Shown: positions 11,090 to 63,148, counted from the stretch's first letter. The stretch: DNA of 64,000 bases from an uncultured Planctomycetales bacterium (GCA_964603585.1 CAZRVK010000002.1:28282-92281), one strand, 5' to 3'. Notes: generated from the sequence alone by a model not told the origin. Numbers and translations are program-made.

Positions 11090-12778
11090 CTACTCCGCGT
11101 TAGAAAAACTGTATACCTCTATTTTATTGCCCTTCCAATAATCTTTTTGTTTAAAGTAATGTTTAAGCCAACCCAGGTAATTTAAAAGGGCATTCCTGCG
11201 CATATGTTCTATCCCAAGATAATCTTCATATGGAACAATCACCCGTAGACACTCATTCTTATTCATGCGTTGTGCAATCTGAATGGGAGAAATACTACCT
11301 ACGATCGAAGTGAAAAATACATCCGGATCCCTGCCGAAAACGGCATTATATGAAGCATAAACAGCCCCATTAACCCATTCCGTAGGCCAAACGACCCTAT
11401 CCTGCGGCGTAAGCCTTTGTTTTATATATGCCATGGCCTCTCGATAAGCAGGATTCATGTTATTAATGATTATCGCTCCAGAAGAAATCAGGTTAAACGG
11501 CACAACAAGCAGGCAAAATAAGTAGCCGATAATCCGCTTATAGAATACTGTGGATTTAATTACCTCATGAATCAATCGGGAATACACAAGGCAAACAAAA
11601 GGGATCAGCCAAATATAATGTCGAACGTTAAAATATGCTACCCCTATACGGGATAAAACATAACTAAAATAACACCAGTAAACTATTGCTATCGCAAATA
11701 CGGAGATAGTCAGTGTAATAAACGGTGGATTGGGCCTTTTTGCATGAAAAACAAGATAAAGCAGGAAAAGAAGAATGAACGGCGCTGTATAAAATGATCC
11801 GTCTCCTGCAAAGCCAAAGATGATCTTTAGAATATGCCCGGTAAAATATAATAATTTATCCTTTTCTGGATAGAAAAGCATCCCCGCCCTCATCCCGGAA
11901 GAAGCTCCAGAATAATACAGGTTTATCGGTAACAATATTGCTGGTATATGCAATATAAACAAGAAATTAAAGATAAGAAGTGCTTTCACAAACCTCAAAA
12001 GATCAACCAAACCATCCCTATATTTAGTTATCCATAGAATGACCAAAGCCAAACCTTGAGAAATAATTACCTGCAAGGCCAGCATGTGCATAAGAAAACA
12101 CGCCATCGTGGCAAGGCAATATTTCCAGATTCCCCGGTCTTTTTTTAAAATAAAAGCCTCCCAGAAGTAATAGTAACTAAGCAGACTGAAAAAAAGAAAA
12201 ACCGCGTAGCTTTCGATCCTAAGGCTATAAAAAGTAAAAAGGATATGGGTTGATAAAAATAGGACTGATAGATACGCTATTGCTCTCTTCTTGAATATTC
12301 TTAACGACAGCTTAAAGAATATATATATGGACAAACTGCTAAAGAGTATTGATACGGCCCTGGCCAGGAATGTCCAAACCCTGAATTCGATAATTGATTT
12401 GAGTTCGTTGGAAAAAATCAGCACATACAAAAACTGGTGCATCACCGTATAGCATGCTTGCGCGACTGCTGCCAGGCTAAAATGCGGTACGGGGAAAATG
12501 TTAAATGCCTCAATAGCATCTTCGCTTAGCTTGAGAATAGAGATCAGCTTTATGCAGCCTAAAATAACTATCCCAATAATGACAAAAATATCTAAGCGCC
12601 GAAAACCCTTGCCAGCAGATTTATTCTCCATCTTAGATCCTGCTGACACTGGTTTCAAATGAGCCCCGAGTAAATACAATAGGCAGGCATTCAATGCGAT
12701 CAATATTAGAAGCAGCGGAAAGTAATACATATAATACTCCGCCAGAGAAAATGAGTTTAATAAAACCTTAGATAGCAT
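11090..12778 (-). CDS. Polytopic membrane protein, paralogue A of a three-member GT-C-like (glycosyltransferase family 39-like) family.
   Basis: Shares FTFYSLRIESYAVFLFFSLLSYYYFWEAF and a C-terminal ...YWKGNKIEVYSF with the ORFs at 12768-14402 and 15814-17502. Acidic first-loop motif (LSEDAIEAF). Confidence 0.55.
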   Translation of the reverse strand: MLSKVLLNSFSLAEYYMYYFPLLLILIALNACLLYLLGAHLKPVSAGSKMENKSAGKGFRRLDIFVIIGIVILGCIKLISILKLSEDAIEAFNIFPVPHFSLAAVAQACYTVMHQFLYVLIFSNELKSIIEFRVWTFLARAVSILFSSLSIYIFFKLSLRIFKKRAIAYLSVLFLSTHILFTFYSLRIESYAVFLFFSLLSYYYFWEAFILKKDRGIWKYCLATMACFLMHMLALQVIISQGLALVILWITKYRDGLVDLLRFVKALLIFNFLFILHIPAILLPINLYYSGASSGMRAGMLFYPEKDKLLYFTGHILKIIFGFAGDGSFYTAPFILLFLLYLVFHAKRPNPPFITLTISVFAIAIVYWCYFSYVLSRIGVAYFNVRHYIWLIPFVCLVYSRLIHEVIKSTVFYKRIIGYLFCLLVVPFNLISSGAIIINNMNPAYREAMAYIKQRLTPQDRVVWPTEWVNGAVYASYNAVFGRDPDVFFTSIVGSISPIQIAQRMNKNECLRVIVPYEDYLGIEHMRRNALLNYLGWLKHYFKQKDYWKGNKIEVYSFSNAE

Positions 12779-14412: not shown

Positions 14413-15768
14413 CTAAAGATACGAGGTTACTGCTGAAAATCCGGTCTTTACCAGAAACACCAGGTCTTCCATGGTTTTTATTTTCTTGAATTGTTTAAAT
14501 AAATATGCCGGCCTTAAATAGAAACGCAAAAAAGAATTCCTGGCCGTTCGCTTCACCAATTCTTGAGATGGGAAATTAGAATTGCTTTTTTGGAACTCAT
14601 CATAAAAATCAGTTCCCGGCATAAGGTAAGTGGTATTAAATTGCGCATAATCCACTCCTAACTCCAAAGCAAAATTATACAAGTCTTTTATAGTTTGTAT
14701 GCTATCCCCCAGCATGCCATACATGAAAAGCCCCAGGACCTCCATCTGCGCTTCTTTTGCCCATTTAGCTGCCTGGCGCGACTGGGCGATAGTTATCCCT
14801 TTATTTGCAATATCAAGCGATTGCTGGCTTGAACTTTCAAAACCGAAAGAAATCTGGTAACAACCCGCCCGCCTCATTAAGGTTAAAAGCTCCTTATCTA
14901 CCAGATCAACCCGGGTAGAACTCCTCCAGGAGATATCAATCTTATTGGAAATGATATATTCACACATTTTCCAGGTCAGTTCCCTGTTACTGGTACAAAC
15001 CTGGTCCCTAAAAAAGATCTCTCCGATCTTATATTTATACACGATCTCATTCAATTCTTCCTTAATGGAATCGAAATCCCGGTAACGCATCTCCCTAAGC
15101 GTATAAAGCCAGGAAGTGCAGAACCTGCACTTGCTATGCGGGCACCCCCTGCTGGTTGACATTGCCGTAACAGGATTACGCCGGTTAAAAATCGCATACC
15201 TGTATGCCTGATTATCGATCAAATCCCGGGCCGGGATCGCCAATTCTTTCATATCTACTAACCTGCGGACACCTTGAAAGATCTTCCCGTTCTGCTTGTA
15301 TGCCACATTCTCATCATACTTGCCCTGCATGATATTCTCTAACGGTAATTCGAGTTCGCCAAGAGCGACAAAATCAACACTGCCATCATCCAGGGCGATT
15401 GCAGGATCCGATATGACCGGAGGGCCGCCAAAGATTATTTTGACCCGCGCAAGACTATCCTTAATAAGGCGGGCAAGCCATTTATCCTCTTCGACACTGA
15501 AATGAGTAGTGGATAAAGCCACATAATCCGGATTTTCCCGGACCACCATTTTTACCAGCTCCGGATGCCGGATATGTTTGATGCTGGCTTCGATGATCTT
15601 GGCCTCGAACCCCTTTTTACGCAGATAACCGGCCGCATACATTAAATCCAAAGGAGGAAACGGTACATATCCCAGGATATAAGCCGCAGACCAGTCTCGA
15701 AGCAGATGTATATGCTTATTTGAATCAGGCCTGCATCCTAAAGGGTCTAAAAGCAATATCTTGGCCAT
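14413..15768 (-). CDS. B12-binding (class B) radical SAM enzyme with non-canonical CX4CX2C cluster spacing.
   Basis: ILLLDPLG...IIFGGPP...ALGELE (B12 domain). TSRGCPHSKCRFC gives C-x4-C-x2-C rather than C-x3-C-x2-C. Confidence 0.8.
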   Translation of the reverse strand: MAKILLLDPLGCRPDSNKHIHLLRDWSAAYILGYVPFPPLDLMYAAGYLRKKGFEAKIIEASIKHIRHPELVKMVVRENPDYVALSTTHFSVEEDKWLARLIKDSLARVKIIFGGPPVISDPAIALDDGSVDFVALGELELPLENIMQGKYDENVAYKQNGKIFQGVRRLVDMKELAIPARDLIDNQAYRYAIFNRRNPVTAMSTSRGCPHSKCRFCTSWLYTLREMRYRDFDSIKEELNEIVYKYKIGEIFFRDQVCTSNRELTWKMCEYIISNKIDISWRSSTRVDLVDKELLTLMRRAGCYQISFGFESSSQQSLDIANKGITIAQSRQAAKWAKEAQMEVLGLFMYGMLGDSIQTIKDLYNFALELGVDYAQFNTTYLMPGTDFYDEFQKSNSNFPSQELVKRTARNSFLRFYLRPAYLFKQFKKIKTMEDLVFLVKTGFSAVTSYL

Positions 15769-17541: not shown

Positions 17542-18954
17542 TTATGCAACCTCTGGCTTAAAAATGGTCCGAGAAAAGTAAACTTTAATCACCCGCAATA
17601 ATTTCGGCAGGTGCTTTAACTTTATATGTTTAATGATCTTAAATAACCTTTTTGGATTGTATATGTATGAACTTATAAATGCCCTGACAAAGATCCTGCG
17701 CAAGGCATCCTTTTTGACCATGCAGGTATCGAAAGGATTAGTAAAAACAAAACTCTCCCAAAGGATATCATTAATTTCACCATGCAAATACAATCTCTGG
17801 AACAATTCTGAACCCGGATAAGGAACGGCGAAAGAAAATACAACATAATCCAGCGGGGATCTTCTTGCGAACTCAACGGTTAATTCCAAAGTCTGCCGGG
17901 TATCATTTGGCAATCCGAGGATAAAGAAACCGAATGTTTCAAACCCATGCCTTTTTACCATCTCGATCTTTTTTAAAACCGTCGAGGCAGATAACGGTTT
18001 TTGATTTTTCTCTAAAACTTCACTGGAAACCGATTCTATGCCAAACCCCAATTGATAACATCCTGCCTGCTTCATAACGCTTAGCAACTCATCATCCAAA
18101 GAATCCAAACGCACGCCAACAGGGGTTTTCCAGGTAATATCCAGCCCCCTTTTTATTATCTCTGTGCATATAGCTATTGCATGTCCGCGGACTTCTGTAA
18201 AATTGTCATCAATTATATTTATCTCCTTAATACCAAAATCCTTGATCAGGCACTCAATTTCATTGACCACCGCATCCGCACTGCGCAACCGTATCTTCCG
18301 GCCATGAACTGCTTGAGAACAGCAAAAACTACAGTTATGCGGACATCCTCTTGAAGTAATGACCGGTGCGGCTGGATGGCGCAAACCAAAAATATGTCCC
18401 GGGGTATCGATATAAGAAGCAGGATCGATTAATTGCCATGCGGGAGTTTCTAAAGAGTCGAGGTCCTTAATTATATTTATTCCCTCCGTCCTGATTATTT
18501 CGTTATTTTTCTTAAAAACTACTCCCGGATAACCGCTAAGGTCATTTTCTTTTAAATTATAACCATAAGATTTGACCATATCGACAAAGACTTCTTCCGC
18601 TTCCCCAATAATGCCGATATCGGCTCCTAAATCCGCCAAAGCAAACTCCGGCAAGGCGGAAATATGCGGGCCTCCAATGACGATATTGACATCGGGCTTA
18701 AGATCCTTGAGCTGCGCAATTATTCCTTTTATCTTCCCATATGAAGGGGTAAAAACGCTTAAACCGACTATAACCGGCTCTTCTGCAAGAATCTTTAAAG
18801 CCGCATCCATAGGGGTACCTTTATAGACAGACAAATTCAATATTCCTGAATCTATCCCGTTCTTTATCAAAGCAGACGCGATATAGGATATGCCTAAATA
18901 GGGCGTGTGCGAGACTGTATTTGCAGGAGGGATAACCAGGAGTATCTTATGCAT
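17542..18954 (-). CDS. B12-binding (class B) radical SAM enzyme.
   Basis: ILLVIPPAN...IVIGGPH...IIGEAE. TSRGCPHNCSFC. Confidence 0.85.
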   Translation of the reverse strand: MHKILLVIPPANTVSHTPYLGISYIASALIKNGIDSGILNLSVYKGTPMDAALKILAEEPVIVGLSVFTPSYGKIKGIIAQLKDLKPDVNIVIGGPHISALPEFALADLGADIGIIGEAEEVFVDMVKSYGYNLKENDLSGYPGVVFKKNNEIIRTEGINIIKDLDSLETPAWQLIDPASYIDTPGHIFGLRHPAAPVITSRGCPHNCSFCCSQAVHGRKIRLRSADAVVNEIECLIKDFGIKEINIIDDNFTEVRGHAIAICTEIIKRGLDITWKTPVGVRLDSLDDELLSVMKQAGCYQLGFGIESVSSEVLEKNQKPLSASTVLKKIEMVKRHGFETFGFFILGLPNDTRQTLELTVEFARRSPLDYVVFSFAVPYPGSELFQRLYLHGEINDILWESFVFTNPFDTCMVKKDALRRIFVRAFISSYIYNPKRLFKIIKHIKLKHLPKLLRVIKVYFSRTIFKPEVA

Positions 18955-21086: not shown

Positions 21087-22631
21087 CTATGGATATATCC
21101 TCTCAAGATATTGCAGCACTCTTTCATTATTGACAGTTCCAACGCATTTTTGAAGTATGATCCAGCTATCTTTAAAATCCAGTGTGGTATATCCGGAATT
21201 ATTCATGAGGCCCTTTAACCTGGGGATAAATTCCGCACGGCTGACCGGATAAAAATCATCCCGGGAAAGATCCAGGAAAATATACTCCCAGGAAACATCA
21301 TCCTTTATCAGCCAATTAGACAGATCACCAAGGGATCCGCACTGGGACAAATGTGGAGCTAATGATTGCATGGTTAAACAAGCGGCCCCGGGAGGGATTT
21401 TCTTCAACATCTCCTTACCTATCGAAACATGCTGTGTCTCGACTAATGACCCCAGACTAAAGTCGCGATTAAAGGGGATCTCAAGGTCCCCGCCGGCAAA
21501 AGTGCTTTTCGGCAGGCATAGATAATGCAAGAAACAAACCTTGACCAACACTATAACCGCAAACAGGTTTGCCAATAATGCATACCGCACTTCCGCAGTA
21601 ACCGCGTTTCTTCTTGGGATGATACCTGTAAGAAAATCCAGGAATTTCTTGATCCCGAACAAACCAGCATAAATTGTAAACGCAAGCAGCATGAAATGCC
21701 CGGTCGAATGATGGTTCCTTAAGAGCAAAAACAGGGTTTCCGGGATCAAAGGGATAAGCCGGAGTGGAGACAAAAAGGCAAAAATAAACGGAAACCCGAA
21801 GAAAACAGATGGCAGCATATTAAACGGATTAAAAATATTCCTTAACACTGCCAAAGGATCCGCTTTAATACTATTCAGCACTAAAAGAAAATTGTCGTTA
21901 TACTGCCCCAAATGCAATAACCCGAAAGGAAAATCCTTTTTTGCTATCGACAGATACAATAGGACCAAAACTGCAATAATTATCAGCCAAGATGCACAGA
22001 TGAAAAATGCCACCCTGGCGAATTTCTTTTGGCCTCTAAGAAAATACAGTACCAGGCTAAACAAAAGGTTAATCACAACAACGTCTATCTTTGCCGCATT
22101 CGATAGAACAAGAAAAATAGAAAACCAGAATATACTCCCCTTTTCCAGGGATAAAAACATCCCCAGAAGAAATAATAACCCTATCGCCAGAGGCATGTAC
22201 CCCAATAAAGAACCCGTTGTGACAACCGGATGCAAAAGATACGCTACCGATAGCGCAAATGAGAGAATACGACTCTTGACGATCCCTCTGGAAAGTAAAT
22301 AAACAAAAACCGCTCCTATAGACATAAAAGAACTTTGAAACCAAAGCAAAGCCTGCGGCTTTAAGATCAAACCGTAAATATGGGCAAAAATAAAATTGAT
22401 CGGGGTAAGGATGAAAAAAATAAACGCGTATTCCGGAAGGATAAACAACTCGAACGGACTCCGCCCATAGGCTATCTTTGGATAGATATGTATGAATTGC
22501 CAGCCGAAGGTTGTAGATGAAAAAATGTTAAACTTAGCCGCATTGATAAAACCAAAGGCGGAAGCGTAAAGAATCGATAGCAATATTACACCTATCAATC
22601 CAGCATCTATCTTATGGTTATCAGACATCAC
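21087..22631 (-). CDS. Polytopic integral membrane protein of unknown family, with a C-terminal soluble domain.
   Basis: About 10-12 hydrophobic helices. The C-terminal roughly 150 aa is hydrophilic. No family motif recognised. Confidence 0.45.
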   Translation of the reverse strand: MMSDNHKIDAGLIGVILLSILYASAFGFINAAKFNIFSSTTFGWQFIHIYPKIAYGRSPFELFILPEYAFIFFILTPINFIFAHIYGLILKPQALLWFQSSFMSIGAVFVYLLSRGIVKSRILSFALSVAYLLHPVVTTGSLLGYMPLAIGLLFLLGMFLSLEKGSIFWFSIFLVLSNAAKIDVVVINLLFSLVLYFLRGQKKFARVAFFICASWLIIIAVLVLLYLSIAKKDFPFGLLHLGQYNDNFLLVLNSIKADPLAVLRNIFNPFNMLPSVFFGFPFIFAFLSPLRLIPLIPETLFLLLRNHHSTGHFMLLAFTIYAGLFGIKKFLDFLTGIIPRRNAVTAEVRYALLANLFAVIVLVKVCFLHYLCLPKSTFAGGDLEIPFNRDFSLGSLVETQHVSIGKEMLKKIPPGAACLTMQSLAPHLSQCGSLGDLSNWLIKDDVSWEYIFLDLSRDDFYPVSRAEFIPRLKGLMNNSGYTTLDFKDSWIILQKCVGTVNNERVLQYLERIYP

Positions 22632-26635: not shown

Positions 26636-28081
26636 TTAATAAAGTGTCAGGTTGCGCAGGCCGAATTTAATACATTCAAAATATGTTAATCGATTGGCCT
26701 TTTTATAACGATACGCGAAAGTAACGGCAAAAACCATATGGTATAATAAATCCAGAGGTAATCGGATAAGCAGTTTCACCAGCGCCAATAATGCCGGGAA
26801 TCTTACTGCCAGATAAAAAAGTTTCTGCAGCCTTATTATTTTATCTATATCTTTATAGGAAAAATTGCTGCGCCTAAAGAATGTAGGTGAAAAACAGCCT
26901 TTATCTGTGGGATGCAAAAAGCCATTCTTAATGGAGACCTCTTCGATCTTTGTGCCCGGATAGGGCTGTAATATTGAACACCAGGGATAATCCGGTTTAA
27001 TACGGATATTGATTGCGACGGTTTTAAGCGCCCCAGACAAGGTCTCCCCGGGCAATCCAAGCATATTATTCGTCAAGATCTTGATACCGTGCCGATGCAA
27101 ACACTCTGCGGCATATAAGATTTGCTGGTCGGTAATATTCTTATTGAGAAGATTTATCCGGGAGTTTTCATCTCCCGTTTCAACCCCCATTGAAACACGG
27201 AAACAACCGCCAGTTTTGAGCATTCTTGACACATCTTCATCAACTAATGAAGCATGGACATTACAGATAAAGGGGATCCTGATGTGCTTATTGTACTCGA
27301 AAAGAAAACCCTCAAGCCATGCCTTATCATATATAAAAATATCATCATCAAAAACCACAGTTCTTAAAGGGTACCTGGTTTTTACCTGTTTTATCTCCTT
27401 GATTATATGCCCGGGGCTTCTGAATCTAAGCGGATTCCTCTCACCCTTATAAAGATCCTTTAAAACATGGTTATAACAATAATTGCAATTGAACAAACAT
27501 CCGCGAGAAGCCATAAAATGCTTTACGCCCTGCCTTTGGAAATCTTTATACTTATCATAAATAGACCGGTCTGGAATAGGCAAATGATCCAGGCAGGGGA
27601 TCAAAGGGCCCATATCATTTCGTATTATTTTATCCGATAACTTAACATAAAGACTTTTTATATGTGGATTTACCTTGCCGGCATTTAAAGAATCTGCGAG
27701 TTCAATGAGAGGGGTTTCGCCTTCCCCCCGGCAAACAGCATCAATGCCCGGCAAATCAATGATATCTGGAGCGAATGTGGGGTGGCTGCCACCAAACAAC
27801 ACAAAAACATTAGCCAGCGCTTTCAACTCTTTAGCGGTCTTGAGTGCCCAAAGATGCTCGCCAGATGAACAAGAGAAACCAACCAACCCGGGTTTCATCT
27901 GGACTATCTTCCGCAAAATATGATTTTCGGCCACACCAATAAAAACATCTACCTCATAACCCCTTGCCTTTAAAACTGCCGAAAGGGACATAACCCCGAT
28001 GTTCTCAAACCATGATCTTTGCACTAAAGCTATTCTCATTTTACAGGCAGCTAACCTCGTTATACAATAAATCCCTGTCAT
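26636..28081 (-). CDS. B12-binding (class B) radical SAM enzyme.
   Basis: IALVQRS...VLFGGSH...VCRGEGE. ASRGCLFNCNYC. Confidence 0.85.
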   Translation of the reverse strand: MTGIYCITRLAACKMRIALVQRSWFENIGVMSLSAVLKARGYEVDVFIGVAENHILRKIVQMKPGLVGFSCSSGEHLWALKTAKELKALANVFVLFGGSHPTFAPDIIDLPGIDAVCRGEGETPLIELADSLNAGKVNPHIKSLYVKLSDKIIRNDMGPLIPCLDHLPIPDRSIYDKYKDFQRQGVKHFMASRGCLFNCNYCYNHVLKDLYKGERNPLRFRSPGHIIKEIKQVKTRYPLRTVVFDDDIFIYDKAWLEGFLFEYNKHIRIPFICNVHASLVDEDVSRMLKTGGCFRVSMGVETGDENSRINLLNKNITDQQILYAAECLHRHGIKILTNNMLGLPGETLSGALKTVAINIRIKPDYPWCSILQPYPGTKIEEVSIKNGFLHPTDKGCFSPTFFRRSNFSYKDIDKIIRLQKLFYLAVRFPALLALVKLLIRLPLDLLYHMVFAVTFAYRYKKANRLTYFECIKFGLRNLTLY

Positions 28082-32736: not shown

Positions 32737-34305
32737 TCACGAATCGTACCATTGAGGTTTTTTCATATGCATGAAGGCCGTTACCCCTTCAAATTTCTTC
32801 CGCCTGAAGAGCGTATCGGTTATCTCGACAAACATCATCCTTGCGGTATTTACAAAAAACCACCAATATAAATTGCGTTTATGTTTGTGGGGAGAAAATA
32901 ATCCCCGAACCAGCCAATGAGGACGGTAAAGAACATAACGTTTATTTAACTCCATATTCAATTTAGCAAATTCGTCGCGCGAAATACCAGAGGTAGAACG
33001 CATGGTAGGAGTAGCCCAATCATAATTCTTAAAATCGGTTTCCTCCAGCAAGCCTTTTTCCTTTGCCTCTTGATATAAATAAGTCCCGGGTACGGGTGCT
33101 ACAGGATGGAAGGCAGGATAATCGATATCGATCTCTCTGGCATAGTCAACCAGGCTCAACATGGACTTTCGGGTATCAAACGGCAAACAGGTCACGAATG
33201 TCCCCTGCCTGAACACATGCGGATATTTTTTCTTAAAGATCATAAAAACTTCTTTTACCATTTCCCGAGTGTAAACTGATTTCTTGATCTTTCGCAGATC
33301 TTCTGTGCAGCCACGCTCCACCCCGATCAATGGATGCACTAAACCGGCTTTGACCATTTTTCCTAAAACCCCAAGCCGTTCATCCCTTAGCACAAAATCA
33401 GCCCGCAGAAAAGCCCACCAAAACAGGTCTTTATAATTGCGCTTAATGAGCTTTTCGCAGAAATCTTCCGTCCATTTACTATCCACATTAAAAGTAGGAT
33501 CAGCCCAAATAAGATACCTGCGATTATACTTATTATAAAGGATATCCACCTCTTCAAGCGTTCTTTCAACACTCTTTGTCCGATACTCCGGGTTAACCTC
33601 CAATCGGCCTTTCTCGATATTTGTATCGGTCTGCCTGCCCCAAAAAGTCCAGAGAGAACAAAAATTACACCGATCAATACAACCACGTGAATGCTCTATG
33701 GTAGCGCTCTGCGGCCAAAGGTAGCCAAAAGGCGCGTATTTACCCATTGGCATAAGATCATAAGCTGGCATCGGTAAAGAATCGAGGTCTTTTATTAAAG
33801 GCCTTATCGCGGTCTTAATGATCTTGCCGCCGTTTTTATATGCGATGCCTTGGACGTTTAAAAGGTCTGTATTATCAATTAAAGCCCGGATTAAATCTAC
33901 AACTGTCTGGTCTCCCTCAAATCTTACAATAATATCGATTGGGTATTGGGCAAAACTGTAATCCGTCATCCAGGAGAAGAAATGCCCTCCAGCCATGGTA
34001 ATCACTTTGGGATTCAACTCTTTTGCCAGCTCAAATAACTTAACCGCCTCATGATGATAAAGTGCCTCTTCTCCGGCTCCGACAATATCCGGATTCTCTT
34101 TTTGGAGGATTCCCTTCAAACTACTCCAACCGATCTTCAGAGGAGGACAGTCGATAATCTTAACTTCGACCCCGGGGACTTTTTCTCTGATAGCTGCCGC
34201 AATAGAAGGTAATCCTAAAGGCAAAAGAAAGTTATCGGATTCATTGATAAACGGCCATAAATACCTGGGGGGACGCACCAAAACCACTTTTTTAAGAGTT
34301 TTCAT
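32737..34305 (-). CDS. B12-binding (class B) radical SAM enzyme.
   Basis: HSRGCIDRCNFC. VVLVRPPRY...PLGLPSIAAAI...TMAGGHF...IVRFEGD. I placed the start at the internal MKTLKKVVLVRPP (34305). The track ORF start (34359) would overlap the upstream GT9 gene by 47 nt. Confidence 0.8.
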   Translation of the reverse strand: MKTLKKVVLVRPPRYLWPFINESDNFLLPLGLPSIAAAIREKVPGVEVKIIDCPPLKIGWSSLKGILQKENPDIVGAGEEALYHHEAVKLFELAKELNPKVITMAGGHFFSWMTDYSFAQYPIDIIVRFEGDQTVVDLIRALIDNTDLLNVQGIAYKNGGKIIKTAIRPLIKDLDSLPMPAYDLMPMGKYAPFGYLWPQSATIEHSRGCIDRCNFCSLWTFWGRQTDTNIEKGRLEVNPEYRTKSVERTLEEVDILYNKYNRRYLIWADPTFNVDSKWTEDFCEKLIKRNYKDLFWWAFLRADFVLRDERLGVLGKMVKAGLVHPLIGVERGCTEDLRKIKKSVYTREMVKEVFMIFKKKYPHVFRQGTFVTCLPFDTRKSMLSLVDYAREIDIDYPAFHPVAPVPGTYLYQEAKEKGLLEETDFKNYDWATPTMRSTSGISRDEFAKLNMELNKRYVLYRPHWLVRGLFSPHKHKRNLYWWFFVNTARMMFVEITDTLFRRKKFEGVTAFMHMKKPQWYDS

Positions 34306-34312
34306 TTTATCC

Positions 34313-35536
34313 TTATCCTGCAGTTCGGAAACAAACGGTTTGAAGTTGTGAATATACATCTTCTGGTTTAATAAACTTCAAGCATTTATTATCCCGGCAG
34401 GCCGATTCCCGGTGATTGAATGCCGAAAAACACGGTGCACAGGGAATTCCTGAATAGAAGATCCTGGTATTCCCGGATAAAGGCGCGTACACCTGTGGAC
34501 TTTCCGGGCCGAAAATAATAAATTCCTTTACCCGCGTTAATGCAGCCAAATGGGCAAGCCCGCAATCATTAGAGATAAACGCATGCGCCATGGTTAAAAG
34601 GGCCAACACTTCTTCTAATTTCGTGGCGTTAACCAGATTAATGCACCGGGCATCATTCAAACGGCACTGTATCTGATTTGCCTTGGACAAAGAACCCTGC
34701 ATACCCACAAGCACCAAATAGTTATGTTTATCAAGCAAAATATTCTCTGCCAACGAAATAAAGTTATTTAAAGGCCAGACCCGAAGAGGGATATTTTCCT
34801 CCCCGGGATTCATTAAGACAAGCCTGGACCCAGAGCTAAATCCCGCAGATAACAACATCTCCTGCATCTTTTTTTTTATCTCTTCCGGAGGATAATACTG
34901 CGGCAAAACCAACTCCTCATCTTCGATCTTACGATTAAATTCAGGGGAAGATTTATCTTCTTCTTTGACAGCATCCCAGAACGAGATAAACGATTTACTG
35001 ATATGCAATAAAGGATTATATTGTACTTTATGGGTCAATAGATCCCCTCTATATAAGCCTTCGCTACAATAACGCCAGAAACCCACTCTTTTTACTGCAC
35101 CGCTTAGATACGCAAGAATGGCGGTGAATCTGGAGAATAATTCAAGATCCAAGGCAATATCTATCCTCTCCCTGCGTAATCTACGGATAACCCGCAAAAG
35201 ATCAAGAACGAACACGCCCAAGCTGTCTTCTCTGATAGTCAACACTTCTATGGCCGGGCTAAGATTAAGAGCGCTAAAAACTTCCTGATTCTTTCGAAAA
35301 GTCAAAAAAAATATCCTTGCCCCAGGATAGGCATTTTGCACCCGATAAATAAGCGGGTAAGTCAAAATAATACTCCCCATTTCAGATAATTTGATAAAGA
35401 GCACTTTATTAAAACTACCGCCGGTGACTTTGCGGTGGAAATTTAATAAACAAAATAAATAACGTAAACCCGTGATAAAGAAACAAAACGGGATACCAAG
35501 CCAATAATCTAATTGTCGCATAAATGCGTTGGGCAT
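34313..35536 (-). CDS. Glycosyltransferase family 9 (ADP-heptose:LPS heptosyltransferase-like).
   Basis: C-terminal LVLMNPGEEN...VNATKLEEVLALLTMAHAFISNDCGLAHLAALTRVKEFIIFGPESPQVYAP matches the GT9 signature (NDSGxMHLAAAxG...FGPT). Carries an N-terminal hydrophobic extension. Confidence 0.7.
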   Translation of the reverse strand: MPNAFMRQLDYWLGIPFCFFITGLRYLFCLLNFHRKVTGGSFNKVLFIKLSEMGSIILTYPLIYRVQNAYPGARIFFLTFRKNQEVFSALNLSPAIEVLTIREDSLGVFVLDLLRVIRRLRRERIDIALDLELFSRFTAILAYLSGAVKRVGFWRYCSEGLYRGDLLTHKVQYNPLLHISKSFISFWDAVKEEDKSSPEFNRKIEDEELVLPQYYPPEEIKKKMQEMLLSAGFSSGSRLVLMNPGEENIPLRVWPLNNFISLAENILLDKHNYLVLVGMQGSLSKANQIQCRLNDARCINLVNATKLEEVLALLTMAHAFISNDCGLAHLAALTRVKEFIIFGPESPQVYAPLSGNTRIFYSGIPCAPCFSAFNHRESACRDNKCLKFIKPEDVYSQLQTVCFRTAG

Positions 35537-61065: not shown

Positions 61066-61094
61066 AATTTATCATACCAACGGAGTTTTGTCAA
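61066..61094 (-). promoter_or_regulatory. Candidate sigma70-like promoter (TTGACA, 17 nt, TAAATT) for the TPR/BamD-like gene.
   Basis: The minus strand reads TTGACAaaactccgttggtatgaTAAATT, with the -10 ending about 11 nt before the ATG (near-leaderless). Confidence 0.2.
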
Positions 61095-61141: not shown

Positions 61142-62026
61142 TTAAACCGGCAAATCAGCAGGTAAGCTCTTTTTGAGATACCTGTTGATATTAGCCTTTT
61201 TGCCCTGACCAACAAGAGAATTGCAAACCCAGCAATCAGCCCTTTTTTCATCCCGGCAATCTCTGAATACCCCGCGCATCCCTTTATAAGTCACTCTGCG
61301 GTTAGGTAAACGCAGCCCGGTCACCAGCATTAAAAACTCCGTTACCGCCAATCCAGCAATCACCCCATTCAAAGAAATGACCGCCGGGTCTGGAATCCCC
61401 GGGCCTAACCCGTACCCAATTTTCTTCCGGTAGATCTTCTCTGTGGGGCTCTCCAGCTCCTGCCGGGCTGTTTCCAGGTCGATCTGGCCGGCGCATAATA
61501 AACAAAAATCTCCCGGGCAGGCTACGATCACCCTGCCGCCAAATTCCTGAAAATCATGCCGGTTGATTATTTCCGCCGCCGAATCGATCAAGGTTTTATT
61601 ATATGCGGCGGCCACCTCCGTAAGGATCAAACGCGCGCTATCATTATCCACACAGCCAAAGATTATTCCGGGCAGACGGGATAAACAATCCAGAGACTCT
61701 TGCTCCCGTAAATTTTTAAAGACCGCTTTTATCCTCGCTTTGGGGTTAATGGAATGGATTACTTTCTTTGCAACCTCGATTTTCGGGGTTTTGGCCCTTG
61801 CCTGTTTCAAGGATGCTCCAACCAGGCGGTTCAAATTCGATTTTTCTACAATATCATCATCGATTAAAAGAAAATCCCCTACCCCCAAATATGCCAGCAT
61901 CTGCACAATAAGAGAACCTGTCCCGCCCAAACCGACAACACCTACTTTAGCCTGAAGGATCTTTTTCTGGCCATTTTTTCCGAACGCCAATATCTGACGG
62001 GAAAACCTATCCTGATGCATACTCAT
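61142..62026 (-). CDS. E1-like ThiF/MoeB/HesA-family adenylyltransferase (the E1 of a Ubl conjugation operon).
   Basis: VGVVGLGGTGSLIVQMLAYLGVGDFLLIDDDIVEKSNLNRL (Rossmann/ATP motif). Two CxxC pairs (FCLLCAG, DCWVC). Confidence 0.8.
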   Translation of the reverse strand: MSMHQDRFSRQILAFGKNGQKKILQAKVGVVGLGGTGSLIVQMLAYLGVGDFLLIDDDIVEKSNLNRLVGASLKQARAKTPKIEVAKKVIHSINPKARIKAVFKNLREQESLDCLSRLPGIIFGCVDNDSARLILTEVAAAYNKTLIDSAAEIINRHDFQEFGGRVIVACPGDFCLLCAGQIDLETARQELESPTEKIYRKKIGYGLGPGIPDPAVISLNGVIAGLAVTEFLMLVTGLRLPNRRVTYKGMRGVFRDCRDEKRADCWVCNSLVGQGKKANINRYLKKSLPADLPV

Positions 62027-62496
62027 TAATTAATGATCCTGATCTCGCTTATCGGTAAAGGCTCCTTCTTCATCGGTAGCCAAACCTGCCCGGTAACATC
62101 ATTCTCGGTCCATACCAGCGCACCATAGATCTTACCCGGGAGCTTCCACCAGACATACTCTATAAATTCATTTAAACCATATTTATCGCTTGAAGACAAC
62201 TGGGCGACGCCAAAGGTACAATGCGAATGGCATTCAACCAAATCATGGTTGTTTCGCCTGGCCATAAGCATGATCTTTACTTTTTCCTTTTCTTTTAATT
62301 CAAGATGAAAACTGCTTTGGTAGTCCCAGCGGTCATTTTTTATGAGATGAATATGTTTTATATTCAAATTTATTACCCCGCCGTTTATCTGGGTATCCGA
62401 AAATAAAAAACAGCCCTGCTCATTTGCATCTTTAAAAAGATGCGGTTTTATCAAACGATAAACCCTTCTGGGGATGGAAAGTAAGACAACCATCAA
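62026..62496 (-). CDS. JAB/MPN+ (JAMM) metalloprotease (deubiquitinase-like).
   Basis: JAMM motif ECHSHCTFGVAQLSSSD (HxH...S..D). Upstream Glu. Confidence 0.65.
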   Translation of the reverse strand: MMVVLLSIPRRVYRLIKPHLFKDANEQGCFLFSDTQINGGVINLNIKHIHLIKNDRWDYQSSFHLELKEKEKVKIMLMARRNNHDLVECHSHCTFGVAQLSSSDKYGLNEFIEYVWWKLPGKIYGALVWTENDVTGQVWLPMKKEPLPISEIRIIN

Positions 62497-62879
62497 TCAG
62501 CCTCGCGCAGCCTTAGGTTAACCGCTTTAATGAAAGATACCAGGTTATCTGCCTTATGATAATCATCCACTGGCCGCCAGATCTCCGGATGCCAGGAGAA
62601 ATAACCCCAGCTCCCACCCACCGGGACATTCATGTGCTCATTGTAGTTAGAAGGGAAATTGCCGTTAACAAGCCTTAATCCAACCTCGACATAAAAACAA
62701 TCCGGTGCGACATGAGGGTAGGTAAGCGGGATCAAAAACAGCAATTTTGTACTTTTACGGTTATATCCGTTCGGCAGAGGGAAATCCGGGATCATCACCC
62801 AATCGTAATTTGCGCCATGCTCAAGATCAGGATACTTCTCTTTTAAAACCGCTATCTCCTGTATGGCTCTTTCTTGCAA
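62493..62879 (-). CDS. E2-like (UBC-fold) ubiquitin-conjugating enzyme homologue.
   Basis: YPHVAPDCFYV resembles the HPN...C catalytic segment of UBC enzymes. About 128 aa. Positioned between the Ubl and JAB genes, overlapping the JAB start by 4 nt. Confidence 0.55.
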   Translation of the reverse strand: MQERAIQEIAVLKEKYPDLEHGANYDWVMIPDFPLPNGYNRKSTKLLFLIPLTYPHVAPDCFYVEVGLRLVNGNFPSNYNEHMNVPVGGSWGYFSWHPEIWRPVDDYHKADNLVSFIKAVNLRLREAD

Positions 62880-62881
62880 AC

Positions 62882-63127
62882 TTATCCTCGCCTAAATCTG
62901 GGAGCCCGGCCATATCTATGCCCTAGTTTCAATAAAACCGTATCGGTATCGGCAAGAGTTCTCTCTGTGCCATCGGGAAACTCTTCTACAACCGGTAGAT
63001 CCGGAGGTAAGCTGGCTAATTCACGCATCTGCTTGACCGTAATGATCTTGCCGTCCCATGGCCACTCTACTCCTTCGATATTAACATAAAATTCCTTTGC
63101 TGCAGCCTTTTGTTTCGCCCGCGCCAT
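62882..63127 (-). CDS. Ubiquitin-like beta-grasp protein (81 aa) ending in a C-terminal Gly.
   Basis: MARAKQKAAAKEFYVNIEGVE...ITVKQMRELASLP...TVLLKLGHRYGRAPRFRRG, terminating with G. Size and position match the Ubl of E1-E2-JAB operons. Confidence 0.5.
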   Translation of the reverse strand: MARAKQKAAAKEFYVNIEGVEWPWDGKIITVKQMRELASLPPDLPVVEEFPDGTERTLADTDTVLLKLGHRYGRAPRFRRG

Positions 63128-63148
63128 AGCCGTTACCTCCTTTTAAAT

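What the first reader, a model, noticed from the sequence alone, without database searches (positions are those of the whole stretch)
61142..63127. Four-gene Ubl-E2-JAB-E1 operon (Bil-like bacterial ubiquitination-like system) in a housekeeping neighbourhood
Four genes are consecutive on the minus strand and translationally coupled (overlaps of 1-4 nt):
- an 81-aa beta-grasp-like protein ending in ...RFRRG (terminal Gly);
- a 128-aa UBC-like protein with a YPHVAPDC catalytic-Cys segment;
- a JAMM/MPN+ protease (HSH...SSSD);
- a ThiF/MoeB-type E1 with two CxxC pairs.

This is exactly the gene order of the recently described BilABCD-type antiviral Ubl conjugation systems, and of the E1-E2-JAB operons predicted by comparative genomics.

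Here it is flanked by a BamD-like gene, lipoprotein genes and a Nudix-like gene rather than obvious defence genes. Its role (phage defence versus another conjugation target) is open.
Basis: partly seen in the sequence, partly recalled or inferred. Interest (0 to 1): 0.75.

Follow-up and report, generated by a model that had tools for sequence, protein, structure and literature searches.

The report
Unfused Bub-type bacterial ubiquitin-like operon
Four tightly packed genes in an Omnitrophota genome encode a complete ubiquitin-like tagging kit (tag, E2, JAB peptidase, E1) that belongs to the recently described cysteine-free "Bub" family, not the antiviral Bil family, and is a stripped-down, unfused version of it.

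Summary
The four minus-strand genes are real, intact and translationally coupled. The same Ubl-E2-JAB-E1 cassette recurs in 11 distinct metagenomic loci.

The Bil assignment does not hold:
- The E2 is Pfam Prok-E2_E. Its model matches Citrobacter BubB (TM 0.74).
- The JAB model matches the BubCD peptidase domain (TM 0.86).
- The closest solved E1 is BubCD.
- The Ubl is Multi_ubiq type.
- Profile comparison with E. aridi BilB and BilD finds nothing beyond the nucleotide-binding motif.

The "catalytic Cys" in YPHVAPDC is not at the family's nucleophile position. Profile-guided alignment puts BubB D299/S333/H335 on D60/S95/H97, all invariant in this clade. E1 Tyr205 matches BubCD Tyr370, and the E1 crossover loop has no conserved Cys. 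The likeliest mechanism is therefore Bub-like oxyester transfer.

Cys61 is lineage-specific. In sister sequences it swaps with a Cys at position 93, so a thiol role is not excluded.

Compared with published Bub types, nothing is fused, there is no BubE (DUF6527), and the Ubl is made already mature.

The cassette is mobile. It is absent from 26 loci that share the BamD-LptE-HolA block. Elsewhere it follows a CapS homologue with an HATPase_c kinase-like gene, or a CapH/CapP-like pair. Its biological role is still open.

Verdict: a new variant of a known kind, of moderate interest.

The parts
63135..63142 (-). Shine-Dalgarno-like AAGGAGGT, 7 nt upstream of the Ubl ATG. Only 21 nt separate the Ubl start from the stop of the upstream lipoprotein-like gene.
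   Evidence: Read directly from the sequence. No strong sigma-70-like site lies immediately upstream.
62882..63127 (-). Ubl (BubA-like), 81 aa. It has a single beta-grasp domain of the Multi_ubiq type and is translated already mature, ending ...APRFRRG81 with nothing after the Gly.
   Evidence: Pfam PF14452 scores 23.9 bits against a cutoff of 24.5, and the same family is flagged on homologues. A family profile hits PDB 9d59 'Multi-ubiquitin domain-containing protein' at E 1.1e-4, with ThiS next at E 0.48. The terminal G is invariant in 10 loci and never has an extension.
62493..62879 (-). E2 (BubB-like), 128 aa, TTG start. It is a truncated UBC fold. Predicted active-site triad:
- Asp60 (62700-62702)
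- Ser95 (62595-62597)
- His97 (62589-62591)

Two lineage-specific residues sit beside it: Cys61 (62697-62699) and Tyr93 (62601-62603).
   Evidence: - Pfam Prok-E2_E, 58 bits.
- phmmer hit to Citrobacter BubB, E 1.4e-7.
- AlphaFold2 model, pLDDT 89.7.
- Foldseek best match 9eae_C BubB: TM 0.74, rmsd 2.8 A, E 4e-6.
- D60, S95 and H97 are invariant in 39 homologues.
- Profile-guided alignment puts BubB D299/S333/H335 on D60/S95/H97.
62026..62493 (-). JAB/JAMM metallopeptidase (BubC-like), 155 aa counted from the ATG at 62493. Catalytic residues:
- Glu25 (62419-62421)
- His89 (62227-62229)
- His91 (62221-62223)
- Ser100
- Asp103 (62185-62187)
   Evidence: - No Pfam, PADLOC or NCBIfam hit.
- AlphaFold2 model, pLDDT 94.8.
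- Foldseek best match is the Citrobacter BubCD N-terminal peptidase domain: TMq 0.86, rmsd 1.9 A, E 4.6e-13. BRCC36, Rpn11, AMSH and Cap3 follow.
- E25, H89, S100 and D103 are invariant and H91 is nearly invariant.
61142..62026 (-). E1 (BubD-like), 294 aa, a single ThiF/MoeB-type adenylation domain.
- Nucleotide-binding motif G32-L-G-G-x-G37.
- Adenylation residues R10, N64, R67, K82 and D127.
- Structural Zn site C175/C178 and C265/C268.
- Crossover-loop Tyr205 (61412-61414) in an invariant GYGLG motif.
- No conserved Cys in the crossover loop.
   Evidence: - Pfam ThiF, 150 bits, full length.
- Best solved relative is Citrobacter BubCD, E 7e-22, with GY aligned to BubCD Y370.
- Invariant residues were read from 10 loci. 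The window's C170 is Arg, Lys or Gln in the other nine.
- All NCBIfam MoeB, ThiF and UbaA models score far below cutoff.
61066..61094 (-). Sigma-70-like promoter (TTGACA, 17 nt spacer, TAAATT, with TG) between the E1 stop and the BamD-like gene. It marks the downstream boundary of the cassette: the conserved BamD-LptE-HolA block appears to have its own promoter.
   Evidence: A 10 of 12 consensus match, read in context. This is a consensus match only, not evidence of function.

Best explanation
This is a self-contained, horizontally mobile, four-gene ubiquitin-like protein-conjugation module of the Bub ('6E', Prok-E2_E) family. All domains are encoded as separate proteins, and there is no BubE serine protease.

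Proposed mechanism:
1. The 81-aa Ubl is made in mature form, ending in Gly81.
2. The dimeric ThiF-like E1 adenylates Gly81.
3. The invariant crossover-loop Tyr205 takes the Ubl as a Ubl~Tyr oxyester.
4. The Ubl passes to Ser95 of the truncated-UBC E2, assisted by His97 and Asp60, as a Ubl~Ser oxyester.
5. The E2 transfers it to a lysine of an unknown target. No E3 is encoded.
6. The stand-alone JAB peptidase reverses the conjugation. There is no precursor for it to process.

What is shown here:
- The gene set and its conservation.
- The folds.
- Family membership of each protein.
- The presence and conservation of every catalytic residue.
- Mobility of the cassette.

What is inferred by homology with Citrobacter and E. 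coli Bub biochemistry (bioRxiv 10.1101/2024.11.21.623953):
- The oxyester chemistry.
- The order of transfer.
- Lysine as the acceptor.
- The deconjugating role of the JAB.

The biological role is most likely a phage- or stress-response function, as proposed for Bub. This has not been demonstrated even for Bub itself.
For: **Family assignment**
- E2 is Prok-E2_E. BubB is the only significant sequence hit and the only significant structural hit.
- The JAB model superposes on the BubCD peptidase domain at 1.9 A.
- The E1's best solved relative is BubCD at 7e-22, ahead of ThiF and MoeB at 1e-16 to 1e-15.
- The Ubl profile hits a solved multi-ubiquitin protein.

**Catalytic residues**
- D60, S95 and H97 are invariant in 39 E2 homologues and align to BubB D299, S333 and H335 under two family profiles.
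- Across 141 representatives of the wider family, position 95 is Ser in 125 and Cys in 14. D60 and H97 co-occur in 58.
- E1 Tyr205 is invariant in 10 loci and in two distant JAB-E1 fusions. The crossover loop has no conserved Cys.
- The JAMM ligands are intact.
- The Ubl always ends at the Gly.

**Mobility and Bub-like regulation**
- Only the four cassette genes are shared among 11 loci.
- The cassette is absent from 26 loci that are syntenic for BamD-LptE-HolA, most also MurJ.
- In L001 and L009 it directly follows a CapS homologue (PDB 9Z72, E 2.2e-7) and an HATPase_c-domain kinase-like gene, downstream of a methyltransferase and a helicase. This is the context reported for Bub operons (PMC13373217).
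- In L007 and L008 it follows an XRE-type HTH gene plus an HEAGH metallopeptidase.
Against: - Two features that define published Bub operons are missing: the fusions (BubAB and BubCD, or BubBD) and BubE/DUF6527. No DUF6527 hit is on record next to any locus.
- The E2 carries Cys61 next to Asp60. Sister sequences instead carry Cys93, two residues from Ser95.
- In the wider family, an aromatic residue at position 93 goes with a Cys at 61 or 95 (16 of 21 versus 4 of 120). The window's own E2 counts among the 16, and the test is not corrected for phylogeny. A thiol could therefore be the real nucleophile.
- The E1 keeps the MoeB/ThiF zinc site; in the alignment Citrobacter BubCD shows no CxxC at the position of the first pair (the second pair lies outside that alignment).
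- No coordinates were available, so active-site distances could not be measured.
- The Ubl fold was not modelled. Its Pfam score is just under the cutoff.
- No defence function has been shown for any Bub operon. In this window there is no regulator, integrase or defence gene nearby.
Confidence: 0.7

Rival explanations
1. A thioester variant. In this Omnitrophota clade, Cys61 (or Cys93 in the sister subgroup) is the E2 nucleophile, or a relay next to Ser95. The cascade would then run E1~Tyr (or the acyl-adenylate) to E2~Cys to Lys, a partial return to canonical thioester chemistry on a Bub scaffold.
For: - Within the clade, 37 of 39 E2s carry exactly one Cys at position 61 or 93. 27 have C61 with Y93, and 10 have C93 with N or S at 61.
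- Position 61 is next to active-site Asp60, and position 93 is two residues before Ser95 on the same predicted strand.
- Family-wide, 14 of 141 representatives have Cys at the nucleophile position 95 itself.
- W or Y at position 93 co-occurs with a Cys at 61 or 95 (Fisher p 1.8e-13, uncorrected for phylogeny).
- Cys61 recurs in five other 50%-identity clusters.
Against: - Ser95, His97 and Asp60 remain invariant even where a Cys is present.
- Two clade members have no Cys at 61 or 93: P0028 (N61/S93) and P0038 (N61/Q93).
- Most of the family has neither Cys.
- The E1 keeps Tyr and gains no Cys, even when partnered with a Cys95-type E2.
- No 3D distances were measured.
Confidence: 0.22
2. One reading: a BilABCD-type antiviral system that conjugates an ISG15-like Ubl to phage structural proteins through Cys thioesters on E1 and E2.
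For: The gene order Ubl-E2-JAB-E1 is the same as in Bil (paper text). Relatives of the cassette lie in mobile or defence-like islands.
Against: - The E1 is 294 aa, a single domain with no CYS domain. E. aridi BilD is 535 aa with an IAD-AAD-CYS architecture.
- hhalign of the E1 profile against BilD aligns only 47 residues around the nucleotide-binding loop, probability 13%.
- The E2 profile against BilB gives probability 0.3%.
- No Bil structure appears among the PDB hits, whereas Bub structures come top.
- The Ubl ends at its Gly with no tail and has one beta-grasp domain.
- Only Type II Bil sequences could be compared directly.
Confidence: 0.04
3. A sulfur-carrier or cofactor pathway of the ThiS/MoaD-ThiF/MoeB kind, with a JAB that unmasks the carrier, as in CysO-Mec+ or QbsE-QbsD.
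For: - The E1 has the MoeB/ThiF domain and its four-Cys zinc site.
- The Ubl profile weakly touches B. subtilis ThiS, E 0.48.
Against: - An E2 of the UBC fold is always present.
- The Ubl ends in RG, not GG, and needs no unmasking.
- The E1 has no rhodanese domain and no crossover-loop Cys.
- NCBIfam MoeB, ThiF and UbaA scores are 83-96 bits against cutoffs of 266-450.
- No thiamine, Moco or siderophore genes are adjacent in any locus.
Confidence: 0.03
4. A housekeeping role tied to its neighbours: Ubl tagging that regulates outer-membrane or LPS assembly (BamD, LptE) in this organism.
For: In the window the cassette is co-directional with Nudix, a lipoprotein, BamD and LptE, and only 21 nt from the upstream gene. 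No regulator or integrase is in view.
Against: - 26 relatives keep the BamD-LptE-HolA block without the cassette, and most have LeuS-ComEA-ComEC upstream instead.
- In the other 10 loci the cassette has entirely different neighbours.
- BamD has its own promoter-like site.
Confidence: 0.03

Closest known systems
Type I Bub operon (formerly '6E.1' / DUF6527; Citrobacter sp. RHBSTW-00271 BubAB-BubCD-BubE; Ye, Gong, Chambers & Corbett, bioRxiv 10.1101/2024.11.21.623953; PDB 9EA4, 9EAE, 9EAV)
   Same: - The same four domain families: Multi_ubiq Ubl, Prok-E2_E E2, JAB, and a minimal ThiF-like E1.
- The same E2 triad, Asp/Ser/His.
- The same invariant crossover-loop Tyr in the E1, with no Cys.
- The same JAMM ligands at nearly the same residue numbers (E25/H89/H91/D103 here, E28/H91/H93/D104 in BubCD).
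- Relatives of the cassette share the regulators reported for Bub operons: a CapS homologue with an adjacent GHKL/HATPase_c kinase-like gene (CapK-like by position), and a CapH/CapP-like pair.
   Different: - All four domains are separate proteins, where Bub has Ubl-E2 and JAB-E1 fusions.
- There is no BubE/DUF6527 protease.
- The Ubl is a single 81-aa beta-grasp made already mature, so the JAB cannot be a processing enzyme.
- The E1 retains the two CxxC zinc-site pairs.
- The E2 has an extra Cys (61 or 93) beside the catalytic Ser.
- The host is Omnitrophota.
Type II Bub operon (6E.2; E. coli ZDHYS365 BubA, BubBD, BubE)
   Same: The Ubl is a separate protein. The E1 has the Tyr and the E2 has the Ser.
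   Different: Type II fuses E2 to E1, usually lacks a JAB, has BubE, and pairs the Ser with Lys and His rather than His and Asp.
BilABCD, Type I (Collimonas) and Type II (Ensifer aridi, '6C/CEHH')
   Same: Four separate genes in the same order, Ubl-E2-JAB-E1. No E3. Found in mobile or defence contexts.
   Different: - A different E2 family.
- A multidomain E1 with a Cys-bearing CYS domain.
- Thioester chemistry.
- The Ubl often has a C-terminal tail or two to three beta-grasp domains.
- Profile comparison detects no similarity beyond the Rossmann loop.
Type II CBASS Cap2/Cap3
   Same: A ThiF-like adenylation domain, a truncated E2 that lacks the C-terminal helices, and a JAB (Cap3). Cap3 appears among the structural hits for the JAB.
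   Different: Cap2 is an E2-E1 fusion that conjugates a CD-NTase, not a Ubl. No CD-NTase or effector is present here. PADLOC E1-E2 models match only the nucleotide-binding part of the E1.
ThiF/MoeB with ThiS/MoaD
   Same: E1 domain architecture, zinc site and adenylation residues. A beta-grasp partner that ends in Gly.
   Different: An E2 and a JAB are present. All equivalog models score below cutoff. The partner ends in a single Gly (RG). There is no sulfur-transfer Cys or rhodanese domain.

Membership tests
Bub (6E / Prok-E2_E) ubiquitination-like operons | An E2 of the BubB / Prok-E2_E type with a truncated UBC fold | tested here: met
   PF14462 at 58 bits against a cutoff of 25. phmmer to BubB, E 1.4e-7. 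AlphaFold2 model against 9eae_C: TM 0.74, E 4e-6, the only hit below 1e-3.
Bub (6E / Prok-E2_E) ubiquitination-like operons | An invariant E2 serine at the catalytic position, with His and Asp partners (Type I: S333, H335, D299), and no catalytic Cys | tested here: inconclusive
   S95, H97 and D60 are present, invariant, and aligned to S333, H335 and D299 by family profiles. However, Cys61 (or Cys93 in sister sequences) lies beside them, so 'cysteine-free' is not strictly met.
Bub (6E / Prok-E2_E) ubiquitination-like operons | An E1 with an invariant Tyr and no Cys in the crossover loop (BubCD Y370) | tested here: met
   The GY205GLG motif is invariant in 10 loci and in two distant fusions. 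It aligns with the BubCD GY at Y370. The window's C170 is not conserved.
Bub (6E / Prok-E2_E) ubiquitination-like operons | A JAB/JAMM peptidase of the BubC type (Type I) | tested here: met
   Foldseek against 9ea4: TMq 0.86, rmsd 1.9 A, E 4.6e-13. E25, H89, H91 and D103 are conserved.
Bub (6E / Prok-E2_E) ubiquitination-like operons | A Ubl with beta-grasp domain(s) and a conserved C-terminal Gly | tested here: met
   Multi_ubiq at 23.9 bits, just under the 24.5 cutoff. Profile hit to PDB 9d59, E 1.1e-4. The terminal Gly is invariant. The fold was not modelled.
Bub (6E / Prok-E2_E) ubiquitination-like operons | Fusion architecture: BubAB plus BubCD (Type I), or BubBD (Type II) | tested here: not met
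   Four separate ORFs with their own starts and stops, in the window and in all 11 loci.
Bub (6E / Prok-E2_E) ubiquitination-like operons | A BubE (DUF6527 / PF20137) serine protease in the operon | tested here: not met
   No PF20137 hit on the immediate neighbours scanned, nor in the precomputed Pfam lists for all called genes within 5-10 kb of the cassette at 8 places. A copy elsewhere in the genome was not excluded.
Bub (6E / Prok-E2_E) ubiquitination-like operons | Association with CapW, CapH+CapP or CapK+CapS regulators and mobile or defence loci. This is frequent in Bub operons but not obligatory. | tested here: inconclusive
   Not in the window. In relatives:
- A CapS homologue (9Z72, E 2.2e-7) plus an HATPase_c gene directly upstream in L001 and L009.
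- An HTH_3 gene plus an HEAGH peptidase in L007 and L008.
- Serine recombinases, a terminase and an nSTAND gene in L001.
BilABCD (Type I/II) | A multidomain E1 (IAD-AAD-CYS) with a catalytic Cys in an inserted helical domain | tested here: not met
   The E1 is 294 aa with a single adenylation domain. hhalign against E. aridi BilD aligns 47 columns at probability 13%.
BilABCD (Type I/II) | A BilB-type E2 with a conserved Cys and His (C138, H151 in E. aridi) | tested here: not met
   hhalign of the E2 profile against BilB gives probability 0.3%. Pfam assigns Prok-E2_E instead. Type I BilB was not available for comparison.
BilABCD (Type I/II) | Gene order Ubl-E2-JAB-E1 as four separate genes | tested here: met
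BilABCD (Type I/II) | [quoted passage not shown] | not testable with these tools
   This needs infection assays.
MoeB/ThiF sulfur-carrier E1 with a ThiS/MoaD partner | Scores above the curated equivalog cutoffs, and the partner ends in GG | tested here: not met
   The best NCBIfam score is 95.8 bits against a cutoff of 266. The Ubl ends FRRG.
Type II CBASS (Cap2/Cap3) | An E2-E1 fusion (Cap2) next to a CD-NTase and an effector | tested here: not met
   E2 and E1 are separate. PADLOC E1-E2 models match only E1 residues ~6-180 (best model 20-116), and the other three proteins have no PADLOC hit. No CD-NTase is in the flanks.

The most novel reading that the evidence does not exclude
The Omnitrophota clade, together with the wider set of stand-alone Prok-E2_E proteins, may be a natural series of intermediates between thioester and oxyester ubiquitin-like conjugation.

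- The nucleophile position 95 switches between Ser and Cys across the family.
- In this clade, one Cys sits at one of two alternative positions (61 or 93) flanking a retained Ser-His-Asp triad.
- The E1 always keeps its Tyr.

If the Cys is the working nucleophile or a relay, this minimal four-protein, BubE-less system would be a mixed Tyr-oxyester to Cys-thioester cascade. It would also be a tractable model for how E2 chemistry changed during evolution.
Probability: 0.22. Interest if true: 0.7.

Novelty: new variant of a known kind. Interest (0 to 1): 0.5.

Why it matters
Bub pathways were described only in 2024-2026. They are notable for running a ubiquitin-like cascade without catalytic cysteines, and their biological role is still unknown.

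- **The published catalogue is probably incomplete.** It was assembled from DUF6527-containing operons. The form found here is fully unfused, lacks BubE, and sits in an uncultivated phylum. Related Ubl-E2-(JAB-E1) forms turned up as well. These would have been missed. A profile search finds 794 clusters of this E2 family at 50% identity. Among the 150 best-scoring, most are stand-alone E2s.
- **It offers a simple experimental system.** With four small separate proteins and a pre-matured Ubl, it is about the simplest system in which to test oxyester transfer.
- **It allows a direct test of the chemistry.** The Ser/Cys interchange at and around the nucleophile gives a handle on why and how the chemistry differs.
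- **It is a caution for annotation.** Gene order alone (Ubl-E2-JAB-E1) does not identify Bil.

Tried and rejected
- **PADLOC, NCBIfam and PHROGs** gave nothing specific for the Ubl, E2 or JAB. Only generic E1 hits appeared.
- **JAB by sequence.** Single-sequence and profile searches of the JAB against PDB sequences were not significant: BubCD at E 0.7-1.2. The fold had to be established by structure prediction.
- **A misleading pairwise alignment.** The phmmer alignment of the E2 to BubB put S333 and H335 on Gly92 and Tyr93. It locked onto a coincidental SW[HN]PEI match, so I first thought the Ser was lost. Family-profile alignment and the family-wide F-S-x-H motif corrected this.
- I repeated it with database homologues.
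- **No fifth gene.** The gene upstream of the Ubl is not conserved between loci, at 17-21% identity.
- **No viral relatives.** A scan of IMG/VR with clade-specific E2 motifs found none.
- **CapK-like and CapP-like proteins** gave no significant PDB sequence hits. Their assignment rests on Pfam HATPase_c, an HEAGH motif, and position.
- **Sequence upstream of the window.** The only contig retrieved ends about 600 nt past the window. The 320-kb NCBI contig that carries the identical RF2 was not returned.
- **Composition.** GC content shows no sign of foreign origin.
- **dN/dS** was not attempted, because divergence of 20-50% at the protein level would saturate dS.


Full report
**1. The observation**

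Four ORFs lie head to tail on the minus strand at 61142-63127.

| Gene | Coordinates | Length | Feature noted |
|---|---|---|---|
| Ubl | 62882-63127 | 81 aa | ends RFRRG |
| E2 | 62493-62879 | 128 aa | YPHVAPDC |
| JAB | 62026-62496 | 156 aa as listed | HSH...SSSD |
| E1 | 61142-62026 | 294 aa | CLLC and CWVC |

Reading the DNA gives these details:
- An AAGGAGGT ribosome-binding site lies 7 nt before the Ubl ATG.
- A 2-nt spacer separates the Ubl stop from the TTG start of the E2.
- The E2-JAB junction reads TGATG. The JAB most likely starts at the ATG at 62493, giving 155 aa, as its homologues do.
- The JAB-E1 junction reads TAATG.

So the genes are translationally coupled, with minor corrections to the stated overlaps.

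The same four genes recur in 11 distinct loci, in the same order and with nearly the same lengths. Ten of these are from other metagenome assemblies or MAGs. Protein identity to the window is 48-71% for the Ubl, 54-79% for the E2, 45-66% for the JAB and 56-70% for the E1.

**2. What each gene is**

*E2*
- It matches Pfam Prok-E2_E at 58 bits.
- Its only sequence relatives among solved structures are Citrobacter BubB chains, E 1.4e-7.
- An AlphaFold2 model built on 39 homologues is confident: pLDDT 89.7, pTM 0.84.
- Its only Foldseek match below E 1e-3 is BubB: 9eae_C, TM 0.74, rmsd 2.8 A. Eukaryotic E2s follow at weak scores.

*JAB*
- The third protein has no Pfam, NCBIfam or PADLOC hit and no significant PDB sequence hit.
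- Its model is very confident: pLDDT 94.8, pTM 0.90.
- It superposes on the N-terminal JAB domain of Citrobacter BubCD at TMq 0.86 and rmsd 1.9 A, E 4.6e-13. BRCC36, Rpn11, AMSH and Cap3 follow.
- Glu25, His89, His91, Ser100 and Asp103 are conserved. BubCD has E28, H91, H93 and D104.

*E1*
- It is a full-length ThiF domain, 150 bits.
- Its best solved relative is BubCD at E 7e-22, ahead of ThiF, MoeB and Uba4 at 1e-16 to 1e-14.
- All NCBIfam MoeB, ThiF and UbaA models score far below their cutoffs, for example 95.8 bits against 266.

*Ubl*
- It scores 23.9 bits on Multi_ubiq against a cutoff of 24.5. Homologues carry the same annotation.
- A 10-sequence profile hits PDB 9d59 'Multi-ubiquitin domain-containing protein' at E 1.1e-4. 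ThiS is the next hit, not significant.

**3. Bil or Bub?**

Bil operons have the same gene order. But their E1 is a protein of about 535 aa with an IAD-AAD-CYS architecture, and their E2 belongs to a different family with a Cys/His pair.

Profile comparison with the Ensifer aridi sequences printed in bioRxiv 10.1101/2023.09.26.559546 gave:
- probability 0.3% for the E2 against BilB;
- probability 13% for the E1 against BilD, restricted to 47 columns around the nucleotide-binding loop.

All four window proteins instead have their closest characterised relatives in the Bub family. Bub was formerly called '6E/DUF6527' and is described in bioRxiv 10.1101/2024.11.21.623953.

**4. Catalytic residues**

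The Bub paper reports that Citrobacter Bub works without catalytic cysteines. E1 Tyr370 in the crossover loop and E2 Ser333, with His335 and Asp299, carry the Ubl as oxyesters.

*E1.* In the window E1, an invariant GY205GLG motif aligns with the BubCD GY at Tyr370. The only other Cys near the loop, C170, is Arg, Lys or Gln in the nine other loci. C175/C178 and C265/C268 are invariant and correspond to the MoeB/ThiF zinc site (the zinc-site assignment rests on established knowledge of MoeB and ThiF).

*E2.* My first pairwise alignment suggested that the Ser was missing. That was an artefact. Three results correct it:
- A profile search of 1.84 billion representatives with the E2 alignment found 794 clusters at E 1e-3 or better, and 271 at 1e-10 or better.
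- Across 141 alignable representatives, the motif F-S95-x-H97 stands out. Position 95 is Ser in 125 and Cys in 14. Asp60 and His97 co-occur in 58.
- When the BubB fragment is aligned to two family profiles, D299, S333 and H335 fall on D60, S95 and H97.

All three residues are invariant in the 39 close homologues.

The Cys in YPHVAPDC (Cys61) is therefore the residue after the active-site Asp. It is not the canonical nucleophile position.

**5. The odd cysteine**

Among the 39 close homologues:

| Number | Position 61 | Position 93 |
|---|---|---|
| 27 | Cys | Tyr |
| 10 | Asn or Ser | Cys |
| 1 | Asn | Ser |
| 1 | Asn | Gln |

Position 93 lies two residues before Ser95 on the same predicted strand.

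In the wider family, Trp or Tyr at position 93 is strongly associated with a Cys at 61 or 95: 16 of 21 against 4 of 120, Fisher p 1.8e-13. This is not corrected for phylogeny. The window's own E2 is one of the 141 sequences counted and falls in the 16.

This does not overturn the Ser95 assignment. It does keep open a thiol nucleophile or relay, which I give about 0.2.

The E1 partner of a Cys95-type E2 (L046) still has the Tyr and the zinc site.

**6. How it differs from published Bub operons**

- Type I Bub is BubAB (a Ubl-E2 fusion), BubCD (a JAB-E1 fusion) and BubE. Type II is BubA, BubBD and BubE.
- Here nothing is fused.
- No DUF6527 protein is detectable beside the cassette, in the window or in any related locus.
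- The Ubl ends exactly at its invariant Gly. The JAB therefore has no precursor to cut and is most plausibly the deconjugase. That is an inference.
- The published Bub catalogue was built from DUF6527-containing operons. That would explain why this form is not described.
- Two more distant stand-alone E2s sit in Ubl-E2-(JAB-E1 fusion) operons, also without a flagged DUF6527. A graded series of architectures therefore exists.
- The underlying Pfam families (Prok-E2_E, Multi_ubiq) are older than the Bub work.

**7. Context and mobility**

*Host.* It is an Omnitrophota bacterium. The best named hits for its RF2 are Candidatus Omnitrophica, and the E2 homologues come mostly from Omnitrophota MAGs.

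*In the window.* The cassette lies between a Nudix gene plus a lipoprotein-like gene on one side and BamD(YfiO)-LptE-HolA-S20-MurJ-UvrC on the other. A sigma-70-like site lies just upstream of BamD.

*In relatives.* 26 metagenomic loci with BamD at 42-75% identity share the downstream block (LptE in 23, HolA in 18, MurJ in 12; the rest are short contigs). None has the cassette, the lipoprotein gene or the Nudix gene upstream. Most have LeuS-ComEA-ComEC there, and none of those genes occurs in the 64-kb window. The cassette therefore sits at a synteny breakpoint and is lineage-specific.

*Across the 11 cassette loci.* Only the four genes are shared. The other contexts are:
- L001 and L009: the cassette directly follows a CapS homologue (PDB 9Z72, V. 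cholerae CapS, E 2.2e-7, full length) and an HATPase_c kinase-like gene. These lie downstream of a methyltransferase and a DEAD helicase, with serine recombinases in both loci and, in L001, a terminase and an nSTAND gene nearby. This is the arrangement reported for Bub operons in PMC13373217.
- L007 and L008: an XRE-type HTH gene and an HEAGH metallopeptidase precede it, a CapH/CapP-like pair.
- L013: it lies near WYL, UDG and M78 genes.
- L045: a TIR gene is nearby.

No relatives were found in IMG/VR or PHROGs. GC content is unremarkable.

**8. Function**

By homology the module conjugates its Ubl to protein lysines and can reverse that. The regulators seen in relatives point to a DNA-damage, phage or stress response.

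No Bub operon has yet been shown to protect against phage. The copy in this window has no regulator in view and may be transcribed with its neighbours. The role stays open.

**9. Verdict**

It is a real Ubl conjugation operon, but of the Bub/6E family rather than Bil. The proposed catalytic Cys is probably not the nucleophile.
- It is a new variant of a known kind: unfused, BubE-less, with a pre-matured Ubl, a zinc-site E1, and a mobile Cys next to the catalytic Ser.
- Interest is moderate (0.5). It widens a very recently described family and offers a minimal system for testing oxyester against thioester transfer. It does not reveal a new principle.

Noticed in passing
window 7306-34359, minus strand (for example 7306-8745, 14413-15768, 17542-18954, 26636-28081, 32737-34359): There is a long co-directional array of ORFs of about 450-560 aa. 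At least five of the ten I scanned are B12-binding radical SAM paralogues. They are interspersed with membrane proteins of glycosyltransferase type (PMT_2 at 4087-5787, DUF2079 at 21087-22631) and several ORFs with no Pfam hit (803-2647, 11090-12778).
   Followed up: partly
E2 alignment A4 (window E2 residues 61 and 93) and 141 family representatives: A covarying pair. Cys61 goes with Tyr93, and Asn61 goes with Cys93. Family-wide, position 95 switches between Ser and Cys, and Trp or Tyr at position 93 is associated with a Cys at 61 or 95 (Fisher p 1.8e-13, not corrected for phylogeny).
   Followed up: partly
L001 3432-9688 and L009 3534-9679: An N6/N4 methyltransferase, a DEAD/ResIII helicase, an HATPase_c kinase-like gene and a CapS homologue lie directly upstream of the cassette. 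This is the R-M then CapK/CapS then immune-operon layout described in PMC13373217. In L001 the whole unit sits between a serine recombinase and a terminase/ParB-methyltransferase module.
   Followed up: partly
L016-L036, upstream of BamD (for example L027 1700-5911): In relatives the gene order is LeuS-ComEA-ComEC-BamD-LptE-HolA-S20-MurJ. The window's lineage has lost this upstream part, and none of the three genes is anywhere in the 64 kb. Nudix, a lipoprotein gene and the cassette sit there instead.
   Followed up: yes
L003 (GCA_042576685.1 contig JBHPEX010000011.1): A contig labelled 'Thermoproteota archaeon' carries the cassette at 77% E2 identity to the window. It also carries bacterial-looking neighbours (PEPCK, an MMPL transporter, glycosyltransferases) and V-type ATPase genes. 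The label may be a binning or taxonomy error, or this may be a real inter-domain transfer.
   Followed up: no
window 61066-61094, minus strand: A near-consensus sigma-70-like promoter with an extended -10 (TTGACA, 17 nt, TG-n-TAAATT) lies in the 87-nt gap between the E1 stop and the BamD start. No terminator-like site follows the E1.
   Followed up: no
L045 5392-6786 and L046 1811-3244: Distant relatives have an unfused Ubl and E2 but a fused JAB-E1 of 464 or 477 aa. That fusion keeps both the zinc CxxC pairs and the crossover-loop Tyr. This architecture is intermediate between the window's cassette and Type I Bub.
   Followed up: partly
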